Virus record (IMG/VR): IMGVR_UViG_2872185964_000007
Reading direction: 5' to 3' (one strand)
DNA from: a virus
Lineage: Duplodnaviria > Heunggongvirae > Uroviricota > Caudoviricetes
DNA: 43,521 nt
Within the stretch, counting starts at the first letter, position 1. Each line of letters starts with the position of its first letter. The notes under the pieces are model-generated. The model worked only from the letters and a program-made list of their open reading frames with translations. It did not search any database and was not told where the DNA came from. A program made the position numbers and the translations under genes. Shown in pieces: positions 16,669 through 16,889 of the stretch.

Positions 16669-16889
16669 TACTTTATTCGTACCCCTTATAATGGGGTGTT
16701 AGCCAGCCAGACCCGGCATGATTACTGCCCCAGTCGTCCATGATCCGGGGGTGATGTCACCGGGTCTGGTGGGGCGCTGGTAACCGCTAATAGGGGTCAG
16801 GTCAGGCACTTTTGCCGGACCGTCTGTAACGTGGATGCCGGTACCTGCTCCCGTGGTTATCTGGTTAACCCATATACAAGGGAGACAGA
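16669..16889 (+). ncRNA. Candidate bridge RNA in the 5' non-coding region of the IS110-type element
   Basis: Leader contains nested inverted repeats (e.g. CCAGACCCGG...CCGGGTCTGG around 16719-16786); position matches where IS110-subgroup elements encode their guide RNA; no transcript evidence. Confidence 0.3.

What the first reader, a model, noticed from the sequence alone, without database searches (positions are those of the whole stretch)
16669..16889. Second IS110-family element (in yecD) has the opposite architecture, with a 221-bp structured 5' leader (bridge-RNA candidate)
This element is unrelated in sequence to the IS1111-type copies and has a long 5' non-coding region and almost no 3' region, the IS110-subgroup layout in which the bridge RNA is encoded upstream of the recombinase. 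The leader is rich in nested inverted repeats (e.g. CCAGACCCGG at ~16719-16728 pairing with CCGGGTCTGG at ~16777-16786, and CCCC-TTATAAT-GGGG at ~16685-16699). The window therefore holds both architectural classes of RNA-guided IS110-family recombinases side by side.
Basis: partly seen in the sequence, partly recalled or inferred. Interest (0 to 1): 0.55.

Follow-up and report, generated by a model that had tools for sequence, protein, structure and literature searches.

The report
Bridge RNA leader of ISEc20/ISSfl4
The 223-base stretch upstream of the transposase gene of the insertion sequence sitting in yecD encodes that element's guide ("bridge") RNA, which reads both the element's own ends and a run-of-C target; this is a real but already catalogued example of a known system.

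Summary
An ISEc20/ISSfl4-type IS110-family element (window 16667-18112, + strand) interrupts yecD. It has a 223-nt 5' non-coding leader and a 26-nt 3' end.

The interpretation also holds. Across 60 relatives from Enterobacteria, Burkholderiales and Actinobacteria, the leader keeps a 5' hairpin plus two long stem-loops with strong compensatory covariation. A covariance model built without any enterobacterial sequence finds window 16702-16855 at 141.5 bits (E about 1e-29).

The internal loops carry four guide segments:
- LTG CUGCCCC(C) matches the left flank.
- RTG CCGGGGG(G)UG complements the right junction.
- LDG UAAUAGGGG matches the element's right end.
- RDG GUAACGUG complements the circle junction.

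LTG, RTG and LDG co-vary with their DNA partners in relatives; RDG and its partner never vary. A TTGACA-17 nt-TACTTT promoter forms only across the joined ends. The natural target is a poly-C tract (CCCCC|CCCCC); the yecD site, CCCCC|TCCCCC, is one mismatch off.

It is not new: Durrant et al. 2024 already list ISSfl4/ISEc20 as having a predicted left-end bridge RNA. This copy carries four 1-nt homopolymer contractions in the leader, two of them in the target guides. These are most likely assembly errors.

The parts
16667..18112 (+). Whole ISEc20/ISSfl4-type IS110-family element inserted in yecD. It is 1446 bp here; canonical copies are 1450 bp.
   Evidence: Ends come from the IS-free yecD (L003) and other copies. 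The element is 99% identical to 'IS110-like element ISEc20 family transposase' loci in more than 1100 E. coli genomes. The canonical length of 1450 bp is seen in metagenome and viral copies.
16659..16666 (+). Left target flank (LT), ATGCCCCC; the last two C would be the target 'core'.
   Evidence: Identical to IS-free yecD up to 16666. Matches the canonical LTG CUGCCCCC at 7 of 8 positions.
16667..16673 (+). Right donor half-site (RD), GTTACTT, the first bases of the element.
   Evidence: GTTAC is invariant in 60 relatives. It is complementary to the RDG GUAAC.
16669..16674 (+). -10-like hexamer TACTTT of the circle-junction promoter.
   Evidence: It lies 17 nt from the TTGACA at 18092-18097 once the ends are joined. 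TAC[T/C][T/A]T is conserved across the family. No promoter-like site exists in the integrated state.
16681..16697 (+). 5' stem-loop of the predicted RNA (ACCCC-UUAUAAU-GGGGU).
   Evidence: A hairpin forms at this position in 53 of 53 distinct relatives despite different sequences and lengths.
16706..16770 (+). Target-binding stem-loop. The outer stem is 16706-16716 with 16760-16770, and a second stem is 16719-16722 with 16756-16759.
   Evidence: 15 pairs, 98% paired across 60 sequences, 7 pairs with compensatory double changes.
16723..16732 (+). Left target guide (LTG), UACUGCCCCA here; canonical copies have CCCCC.
   Evidence: Same sense as the left flank. LTG variants in L047, L061, L069 and L080 match their own flanks. 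Permutation test: 33 of 20000 shuffles as good.
16745..16755 (+). Right target guide plus core and handshake positions, CCGGGGGUGAU here; canonical copies have six G.
   Evidence: It is the reverse complement of the right junction CAC|CCCCC(GG). RTG variants in L033, L047, L069, L080 and L083 match their own right flanks. Permutation test: 1 of 20000.
16772..16852 (+). Donor-binding stem-loop. The outer stem is 16772-16785 with 16840-16852, and the inner stem is 16799-16803 with 16818-16822.
   Evidence: Outer stem: 10 pairs, 7 with compensatory double changes. Inner stem: 3 of 5 pairs with double changes.
16786..16798 (+). Left donor guide (LDG), GCUAAUAGGGGUC.
   Evidence: Same sense as the element's right end TAATAGGGGC (18101-18110). 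LDG classes GGGAC, GAGGC and GGAGC co-vary with the right ends of the same loci. Permutation test: 17 of 20000.
16823..16836 (+). Right donor guide (RDG) plus core and handshake positions, UCUGUAACGUGGAU.
   Evidence: GUAACGUG is the reverse complement of the circle junction CAC|GTTAC. It is invariant in the family, so there is no covariation to test. The repeat finder independently pairs 16826-16834 with 16663-16671.
16702..16855 (+). Extent of the covariance-model match, covering the target-binding and donor-binding stem-loops.
   Evidence: Model R1, built from 40 non-enterobacterial relatives: 141.5 bits, E about 1e-29, model positions 1-156 of 156.
16890..18086 (+). Recombinase (transposase) gene, 398 aa, intact.
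   Evidence: Pfam PF01548 and PF02371. NCBIfam NF033542, 236 bits against a cutoff of 140. D17, D65, D107, D110 and S320-S323 are invariant among relatives.
18092..18097 (+). -35 hexamer TTGACA in the right end.
   Evidence: TTGAC[A/G] is conserved 15-16 nt from the element end in relatives.
18101..18112 (+). Left donor half-site (LD) plus donor core, TAATAGGGGC-AC.
   Evidence: It is the last bases of the element and matches the LDG.
18113..18119 (+). Right target flank (RT), TCCCCGC. IS-free yecD has TCCCCCGC.
   Evidence: It differs from the cognate CCCCC at position +1.

Best explanation
The leader is the gene for the bridge RNA of an ISEc20/ISSfl4-type IS110-group element.

Inferred life cycle, by homology with IS621:
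- When the element is excised as a circle, its right end (carrying TTGACA) abuts its left end (carrying TACTTT). This forms a sigma-70 promoter.
- That promoter would start transcription near 16681 and produce an RNA of about 175-180 nt, followed by the recombinase message.
- The RNA folds into a 5' hairpin and two stem-loops whose internal loops are guides.
[quoted passage not shown] Together these specify a run of about ten C, cut in the middle.
- In the second loop, the LDG (UAAUAGGGGC) and RDG (GUAAC) hold the joined ends of the element.
- The trinucleotide GUG follows both the RTG and the RDG. It complements the terminal CAC of the element and would serve as core and handshake positions.
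- The DEDD/serine recombinase then exchanges strands after the shared C. This gives ...CCCCC|GTTAC...GGGGCAC|CCCCC... with no target duplication.

The yecD site GATGCCCCC|TCCCCCGCT is a near-cognate target with one mismatch, a T at +1.

What is shown here: the element limits, the conserved RNA structure, guide-DNA complementarity, covariation for three of the four guides, and the junction-only promoter sequence.

What is inferred: transcription, RNA-protein binding and the chemistry of strand exchange.
For: - **Identity.** ISEc20 family by DNA. Intact DEDD plus Tnp domains. The ISSfl4/ISEc20 cluster is listed with a bridge RNA in the left end (LE) in Durrant 2024, Supplementary Table 5.
- **Structure.** For 34 curated pairs over 60 leaders, 95.2% of cells are paired, against 23-49% when partners are slid. 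There are 17 pairs with double changes, and 187 compensatory cells against 5-23 in slid controls. The covariation score is 0.351 against 0.094 or less, and 0 of 500 shuffles reach it. Many G-U pairs would be A-C on the other strand, and the minus strand scores only 19 bits. The 5' hairpin forms in 53 of 53 distinct sequences.
- **Independent model.** 141.5 bits, E about 1e-29 on the window.
- **Guides.** Sequence matches are. Shuffles matching as well as the true guide-DNA pairing: LDG-LD 17 of 20000, RTG-RT 1 of 20000, LTG-LT 33 of 20000. Examples: L047 RTG ACCUUGUG against CAC|AAGGT; L069 LTG CGUUCCUC against CGTTCCTC|; LDG GGGAC, GAGGC and GGAGC against right ends with the same change.
- **Target.** From 46 unique left and 25 unique right ISEc20 flanks the logo is C(63%)CCCC|CCCCC.
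- **Promoter.** TTGACA and TACTTT are 17 nt apart only across the junction, and both hexamers are conserved in the family. There are 0 promoter-like sites in the integrated locus.
- **Geometry.** The LTG/RTG/LDG/RDG strand rules and the handshake rules match those described for IS621.
Against: - No expression data are available. In the integrated copy the -35 is missing, so RNA would depend on read-through from yecD (same strand) or on circle formation.
- The -10 hexamer matches TATAAT at only 3 of 6 positions in this element.
- The thermodynamic signal is modest (z about -2.3 to -3.1).
- RDG and RD never vary, so that pairing rests on complementarity alone.
- The LDG does not visibly cover the donor core AC.
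- Donor core (AC) and target core (CC or TC) share only the C, unlike the identical CT cores of IS621.
- In this window's sequence the LTG C-run and RTG G-run are each one base short. If that is real, the guides would be out of register.
Confidence: 0.9

Rival explanations
1. The family encodes a bridge RNA, but this particular copy is defective. Its leader has lost one base in each of four homopolymer runs, including the LTG C-run and the RTG G-run. Its own RNA could then no longer align target and cleavage site, leaving a stranded element in a decaying Shigella gene.
For: Relative to every other copy examined, the window lacks C at about 16727, G at about 16746, G at about 16816 and C at about 16849. 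No identical leader occurs among 2345 E. coli places (best 98.7%) or 385 plasmid places (best 99.1%). The adjacent 4.3 kb shows no indel against E. coli. All three sister assemblies share the short LTG run.
Against: The window is identical to CP026872.1 over the 4.2 kb compared (locus L087). Two sister assemblies with the same insertion and the identical protein differ from it only in these run lengths, showing 1, 2 or 4 contractions. An independent assembly of the same yecD insertion (IMG/VR locus L171) has the fully canonical leader and a 1450-bp element. 51 of 55 metagenome and viral copies have C5/G6. Errors confined to G/C runs inside a multi-copy repeat are typical of long-read consensus. 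The ORF is intact.
Confidence: 0.15
2. The leader is only a 5' untranslated or regulatory region, or a set of recombinase-binding DNA sites. Its conservation would then reflect promoter, translation control or protein-DNA contacts, not an RNA guide.
For: It does contain half of the junction promoter, and the ribosome-binding site (GGGAG at 16880) lies just downstream. The region between LTG and RTG (AGUCGUCCAUGAUC) is conserved in sequence rather than by covariation (helix 2). RDG and RD are invariant.
Against: Compensatory base-pair changes, with G-U pairs on the + strand only, argue for an RNA. Loop bases co-vary with DNA about 1.3 kb away (the right end) and with flanking host DNA. A UTR or protein-site model does not predict this.
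Confidence: 0.05
3. The inverted repeats are chance features of a GC-rich stretch.
For: Single-sequence folding is only 2-3 standard deviations better than shuffles.
Against: The same helices are kept through sequence change in 60 relatives from three bacterial groups. A model built from distant relatives scores 141.5 bits on the window.
Confidence: 0.01

Closest known systems
IS621 bridge RNA / bridge recombinase (E. coli; Durrant et al. 2024, PMC11208160; Hiraizumi et al. 2024, PMC11208158)
   Same: Both are IS110-group elements with a long left end, a short right end and a DEDD plus Tnp(Ser) recombinase. The RNA has a 5' stem-loop followed by a target-binding and a donor-binding stem-loop. 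The strand rules are the same: LTG and LDG have the sense of the top strand, while RTG and RDG are reverse complements. In both, the -35 lies in the right end and the -10 in the left end, joined only in the circle. Bases 3' of the RTG complement the donor's last bases, as handshake guides do. Predicted RNA length is about 175-180 nt against 177 nt for IS621.
   Different: The recombinase is 398 aa against the 326 aa I recall for IS621 (from memory, not checked here), and the two belong to different clades. The RNA sequence is not alignable: model R1 does not hit an IS621 copy. The target is a poly-C tract rather than IS621's target sequence. The donor core is AC and the target core CC or TC, sharing only C, whereas both IS621 cores are CT. 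The LDG does not visibly extend over the core. Nothing is experimentally tested for ISEc20.
ISSfl4 / ISEc20 entry in Durrant et al. 2024, Supplementary Table 5
   Same: It is the same element cluster, there assigned a predicted bridge RNA in the left end ('ISSfl4, LE, IS110, ISEc20;ISSfl4'). A separate supplementary file groups it in one cluster with IS110, ISBma3, ISSer1 and others.
   Different: The entry read here gives only which end holds the RNA (LE), the IS110 group label, the element names and an aligned protein sequence. The guide map, target logo and junction analysis given here were not seen in the parts of that paper that were read. I did not read all of its supplements.
ISBma3 (Burkholderia) and the Actinobacteria relatives of IS110
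   Same: They share 68-82% amino-acid identity with this recombinase. They have the same leader architecture, almost the same guides and the same poly-C target.
   Different: The 5' hairpin is longer in Actinobacteria. A few lineages have retargeted guides: L069 and L080 to CCTC|TCTCA, L047 to ATCCC|AAGGT, and L083 and L033 with changed RTGs.
IS1111-group elements and seekRNA (Siddiquee et al. 2024, PMC11187229)
   Same: Same recombinase superfamily and the same idea of an RNA that reads the target. Two copies of such an element are in this window.
   Different: In those elements the RNA lies in the long 3' end and the sub-terminal inverted repeats are long. The element studied here has the opposite layout.

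Membership tests
IS110 family, IS110 group (bridge-RNA recombinase elements) | Recombinase with an N-terminal DEDD (RuvC-like) domain and a C-terminal Tnp domain carrying a conserved serine | tested here: met
   PF01548 matched 1-155/155 (E = 7e-49) and PF02371 (E = 7e-22). NF033542, 'IS110 family RNA-guided transposase', scores 236 bits against a cutoff of 140. D17, D65, D107, D110 and S320/S322/S323 are invariant in 12 relatives.
IS110 family, IS110 group (bridge-RNA recombinase elements) | Long non-coding left end and short right end (the reverse of IS1111) | tested here: met
   223 nt against 26 nt.
IS110 family, IS110 group (bridge-RNA recombinase elements) | Left-end RNA with a 5' stem-loop and two stem-loops with internal loops, conserved by covariation | tested here: met
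IS110 family, IS110 group (bridge-RNA recombinase elements) | [quoted passage not shown] | tested here: met
   The yecD flanks match at 7 of 8 positions (LTG) and, for the RTG, at five Watson-Crick pairs plus one G-T wobble over the seven RT positions, using the canonical guides.
IS110 family, IS110 group (bridge-RNA recombinase elements) | The other loop is complementary to the element's own joined ends (LDG, RDG) | tested here: met
   LDG matches the right end and co-varies with it (17 of 20000). RDG GUAACGUG equals the reverse complement of CAC|GTTAC, but it is invariant, so complementarity is the only evidence.
IS110 family, IS110 group (bridge-RNA recombinase elements) | Promoter reconstituted across the circle junction | tested here: inconclusive
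   TTGACA-17 nt-TACTTT forms only when the ends are joined, and both hexamers are conserved. No promoter-like site exists in the integrated state. The -10 hexamer is weak (3 of 6), and activity was not measured.
IS110 family, IS110 group (bridge-RNA recombinase elements) | Identical core dinucleotide in donor and target, present at both junctions, with no target duplication | tested here: inconclusive
   There is no duplication (L085 against L003). Only the C before the crossover is shared. Position -2 is A in the donor and C in 45 of 46 unique left junctions, G in one.
IS110 family, IS110 group (bridge-RNA recombinase elements) | The RNA is transcribed and bound by the recombinase, and guide changes redirect recombination | not testable with these tools
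   No expression or biochemical data are available.
IS621-type bridge RNA (sequence family) | RNA alignable with the IS621 bridge RNA | tested here: not met
   Model R1 does not hit the IS621 copy in L084. Rfam 15 holds no bridge-RNA family: the same IS621 copy gives no relevant hit, and neither does the window.
IS1111 group | Long right end holding the RNA, short left end, sub-terminal inverted repeats of 7-17 bp | tested here: not met
   The layout is the opposite. Only a 4-bp AATA/TATT symmetry lies 7 bp inside each end, read directly from the sequence.

The most novel reading that the evidence does not exclude
In this clade, which includes the founding element IS110, the donor core (AC) and the target core (CC or TC) differ at their first base. 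Yet natural junctions keep the top-strand parent's base: 0 of 46 unique ISEc20 left junctions carry A at -2. That pattern fits integration by top-strand transfer completed by replication, as proposed for CazIS110-1 in a 2025 preprint. It fits less well with symmetric Holliday-junction resolution across an identical core. In addition, about a fifth of unique right junctions read CAC|GTTA(C/T). These look like footprints of natural bridge-RNA-guided adjacent deletions at pseudo-left-junction sites, and one was verified as a deletion of about 0.6 kb. Population data on this very common enterobacterial IS could therefore discriminate between mechanistic models.
Probability: 0.25. Interest if true: 0.5.

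Novelty: already known. Interest (0 to 1): 0.22.

Why it matters
It confirms that a very widespread enterobacterial insertion sequence, present in about a quarter of complete E. coli genomes and common in Shigella, is an RNA-guided recombinase element. It also gives a concrete guide map: a poly-C target, the element's own ends as donor, and a junction-only promoter. That is useful for annotation, because such leaders are left blank in genome records and Rfam has no model for them. It also helps in reading IS-driven gene loss in Shigella. It adds no new kind of system. The side observations on a mismatched core and on natural adjacent deletions at pseudo-sites may interest people working on the strand-exchange mechanism.

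Tried and rejected
- **Rfam.** Searches of the window at gathering and permissive thresholds found nothing relevant. A control on a genuine IS621 copy also found nothing. Rfam's silence therefore says nothing either way.
- **Single-sequence folding.** The z-scores are only modest, so I did not rely on them.
- **TATAAT at 16687-16692 as a promoter -10.** It has no -35 partner in either the integrated or the circular arrangement, and it lies in the loop of the 5' hairpin. Rejected.
- **Target duplication at yecD.** I tried to fit a 2-nt or 3-nt duplication. No model fitted the window, because the right flank is one C short. The sister assembly L085 shows a clean insertion between C5 and T6 with no duplication.
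- **The four leader deletions as a retargeted guide.** I considered this because the RTG and the right flank are both one base shorter. I rejected it as the main reading, because the run lengths vary among sister assemblies and L171 is canonical.
- **Extended left-flank recognition.** The yecD site and a prophage site share GCCGGNTGAT upstream of the C-run, which suggested it. The logo from 46 unique flanks shows no preference beyond -5, so this is coincidence.
- **RNAalifold pairs between LTG and RTG (CCC/GGG) and between LDG and RDG.** I left these out of the curated structure, since they are probably guide-guide pairing of the free RNA.
- **S. flexneri SFBU1023 locus (L004).** I did not use it to settle the junction. 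Its flank carries several differences from the other assemblies of this site, which I read as sequence errors.

Full report
**What is at the locus.** The window carries aspS and then yecD. yecD is split after codon 73 by a 1446-bp element at 16667-18112 on the + strand.

- The limits follow from an IS-free E. coli yecD (L003), which reads GATGCCCCC|TCCCCCGCT. The window matches it up to 16666 and again from 18114.
- Other copies of the same element in unrelated sites all begin GTTACTTTATTCG and end AATAGGGGCAC.
- Megablast places the element in 1463 of 5426 complete E. coli genomes, at 99% identity or more in most of them. RefSeq calls the gene 'IS110-like element ISEc20 family transposase'. 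Shigella plasmid records call it ISSfl4.
- The single ORF (16890-18086, 398 aa) has full-length DEDD_Tnp_IS110 and Transposase_20 domains. It passes NCBIfam NF033542, 'IS110 family RNA-guided transposase'.
- The non-coding 5' part is 223 nt and the 3' part is 26 nt.

The element, its asymmetry and the inverted repeats are real. The repeats sit at 16707-16716/16760-16769 and 16682-16696, which is 3-17 nt from the stated positions. The other IS110-family element in the window lies at 8187-9713, with a second copy split by IS1 at 2931-1502 and 733-629. It has the opposite layout (82 nt 5', about 270 nt 3') and an unrelated protein sequence. The window does hold both architectures.

**Is the leader a structured RNA?** Single-sequence folding gives z = -3.1 for the whole leader and -2.3 to -2.7 for the trimmed RNA. 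That is suggestive only.

- I fetched 80 loci encoding relatives of the recombinase, at 68-99% amino-acid identity. They come from Shigella and E. coli, Burkholderiales (ISBma3-like) and Actinobacteria.
- I aligned 60 distinct leaders. RNAalifold finds two long stem-loops.
- A curated set of 34 pairs is 95.2% paired, against 23-49% when the 3' partners are slid by 1-3 columns. It has 17 pairs with changes on both sides and 187 compensatory cells, against 5-23 in slid controls. Its covariation score is 0.351 against 0.094 or less, and no shuffle out of 500 reaches it.
- A 5' hairpin forms at the same place in all 53 distinct sequences, although its sequence and length differ.
- A covariance model built from 40 relatives, none enterobacterial, finds window 16702-16855 on the + strand at 141.5 bits, E about 1e-29, full length. 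The minus strand scores 19 bits. Nothing is found at the IS1111-type copies or at an IS621 copy in locus L084.
- Rfam 15 gives no hit, but it gives none for a genuine IS621 left end either. It simply has no bridge-RNA family.

**Guides.** Durrant et al. 2024 give the strand rules for IS621. LTG and LDG pair with the bottom strand, so they read like the top strand. RTG and RDG pair with the top strand. The core is included in each pairing. Applied here, the four segments are as follows.

| Guide | Window position | RNA sequence (canonical) | DNA partner |
|---|---|---|---|
| LTG | 16723-16732 | CUGCCCCC | left flank ATGCCCCC |
| RTG | 16745-16755 | CCGGGGGG-UG | reverse complement of the right junction CAC\|CCCCC(GG) |
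| LDG | 16786-16798 | UAAUAGGGG(C/U) | right end TAATAGGGGC |
| RDG | 16823-16836 | GUAACGUG | reverse complement of the circle junction CAC\|GTTAC |

The repeat finder independently paired 16826-16834 with the left junction at 16663-16671.

These matches co-vary in relatives:
- LDG variants GGGAC, GAGGC and GGAGC occur with right ends carrying the same change.
- L069 and L080 have LTGs CGUUCCUC and CAACCCUC and RTG UUGAGAGUG. Their flanks read CGTTCCTC| (or AACCCTC|) and CAC|TCTCA.
- L047 has RTG ACCUUGUG and a right junction CAC|AAGGT.
- L083 and L033 behave likewise.

On unique guide/DNA pairs, shuffling partners matches the true pairing in 17 of 20000 trials (LDG-LD), 1 of 20000 (RTG-RT) and 33 of 20000 (LTG-LT). 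RDG and RD never vary, so there is only complementarity for that pair.

The GUG that follows both RTG and RDG complements the terminal CAC of the element. By analogy with IS621, its G and U would face the core, and its last G the first handshake position. The GG after the RDG complements the CC that precedes the target core. This is inference.

**Target.** From 74 metagenome and 19 viral loci carrying ISEc20, plus the genome loci, I collected 46 unique left flanks and 31 unique right flanks. Positions -4 to -1 are C in 44-46 of 46, and -5 is C in 29 of 46. Further upstream there is no preference. Positions +1 to +5 are C in 20-25 of the 25 ordinary right flanks. The element therefore targets a run of about ten C and inserts in its middle, as the CCCCC of the LTG and the GGGGG of the RTG predict. 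yecD offers CCCCC|TCCCCC, one mismatch at +1. The site next to ibsA used in another genome has the same CCCCC|TCCCCC sequence.

**Promoter.** TTGACA (18092-18097) lies 15 nt from the element's end. After joining to the left end, GT completes a 17-nt spacer before TACTTT (16669-16674). TTGAC[A/G] and TAC[T/C][T/A]T are conserved at these positions in the family, with a spacer of 17-18 nt. The integrated locus has no promoter-like site. This is the arrangement described for IS621, with the -35 in the right end. In the chromosome the element points the same way as yecD, so read-through is possible. For IS621, weak expression from chromosomal copies has been reported.

**An oddity of this copy.** Against every other copy, the window lacks one base in four runs: the LTG C-run (about 16727), the RTG G-run (about 16746), a G-run at about 16816 and a C-run at about 16849. 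The ORF has no indel. No E. coli or plasmid copy has this leader.

- The window is identical to locus L087 (4.2 kb of CP026872.1).
- Two sister assemblies (CP026866.1, CP026867.1) have the same insertion and the identical protein, but show only one and two of these contractions.
- An IMG/VR contig with the same yecD insertion (L171) has the canonical leader and a 1450-bp element.
- 51 of 55 other copies have C5/G6.

I conclude that these are most probably consensus errors in G/C runs of a repeated element, not biology. This is not proven.

The right flank is T+4C in three of the four assemblies of this insertion that I treated as reliable, and T+5C in L085 and in IS-free yecD. I cannot assign that difference. 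L085 shows a clean insertion between C5 and T6, with no duplication and no loss.

**The core.** The only base shared by donor (CA-C|GTTAC) and target (C-C|CCCCC or T-C|TCTCA) at the crossover is the C. Position -2 is A in the donor but C in 45 of 46 unique left junctions and G in one, never A. IS621 has identical CT cores. Either the first core position tolerates a mismatch and the products keep the top-strand base, or the cleavage geometry differs. The former would agree with the top-strand insertion model of a 2025 preprint. I flag this as an open point only.

**Side finding.** Six of the 31 unique right flanks begin GTTA(C/T), that is, they imitate the element's own left end. For L006 the two flanks lie about 0.6 kb apart in IS-free genomes. 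The ibsA side reads TTTCCCCC|TCCCCCTGG and the mdtA side reads CCGC|GTTACCT. The element inserted at the first site, and the segment up to a pseudo-left-junction was then deleted. This is what an excision-type reaction using the LTG and RDG on a pseudo-site would produce.

**Comparison with what is known, and novelty.** The system works like IS621 and meets the testable defining features of IS110-group bridge elements. Its RNA is not alignable with that of IS621, and the core differs. Durrant et al. 2024 list 'ISSfl4, LE, IS110, ISEc20;ISSfl4' among elements with a predicted bridge RNA in the left end. They group it with IS110, ISBma3 and others. The finding is therefore a correct recognition of an already catalogued, though experimentally untested, member of a known system.

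**Verdict.** Novelty: already known. Interest: low to moderate (0.22).

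Noticed in passing
window 16727, 16746, 16816, 16849 (leader) and 18114-18117 (right flank): This copy is one base short in four G/C runs of the leader and in the flanking C-run, compared with canonical copies. Sister assemblies of the same insertion show 1, 2 or 4 of the leader contractions, and an IMG/VR contig (L171) shows none. This is probably assembly error. The short flank run appears in 3 of the 4 assemblies I treated as reliable, so that difference stays open.
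   Followed up: yes
L006:2424-2440, plus five metagenome or viral loci among L088-L180: Six of 31 unique ISEc20 right junctions read CAC|GTTA(C/T), imitating the element's own left end. For L006 the two flanks lie about 0.6 kb apart in IS-free E. coli (ibsA to mdtA). That makes it an IS-adjacent deletion ending at a pseudo-left-junction CCGC|GTTACCT.
   Followed up: partly
window 16665-16666 and 18111-18112; 46 unique left flanks in L001-L180: The donor core is AC and the target core is CC (TC in some relatives). No left junction carries A at -2, so the two cores share only one base, unlike the CT/CT cores of IS621.
   Followed up: partly
window 8187-9713 (+); 2931-1502 and 733-629 (-): A second IS110-family element with the IS1111 layout (82-nt 5', about 270-nt 3' non-coding; 391-aa recombinase at 8269-9444) is present twice. 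The second copy is split by an IS1 at 730-1502.
   Followed up: partly
L004-L083: Recombinases 68-82% identical to this one occur in Burkholderiales and in Micrococcales and other Actinobacteria. They have nearly the same leader and the same poly-C target. This suggests recent spread across phyla with little retargeting; only a few lineages (L047, L069, L070, L080, L061, L083, L033) have changed guides.
   Followed up: partly
L082:2365-2400: The right end of one element is followed by CC and then the left end (GTTACCTTGTG...) of a second, related element. This is a tandem arrangement.
   Followed up: no
L071, L059, L024, L018 right ends: In a few relatives the right end lacks the CA of ...GGGGCAC and runs straight into C's (for example ATAGAGGCCCCCCC). 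L036 has CAC before its left end. These could be the reciprocal core outcome, or small deletions.
   Followed up: no
L071 leader; flanks of L041, L059, L073: There are very long G or C homopolymers: an RTG G-run of 13 in L071, and target C-runs of 13 to more than 50. These could be slippage or assembly artefacts in the poly-C targets.
   Followed up: no
window 16890-18083 protein, residues 246-368: There is a sub-threshold match (41 bits, cutoff 100) to NCBIfam TIGR_Tas_endo. This is consistent with the published relationship between the IS110 Tnp domain and other RNA-guided proteins.
   Followed up: no
window 18102-18105 and 16674-16677: A 4-bp inverted symmetry, AATA ... TATT, lies exactly 7 bp inside each end of the element. 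It may be the short sub-terminal inverted repeat described for IS110-group elements.
   Followed up: no
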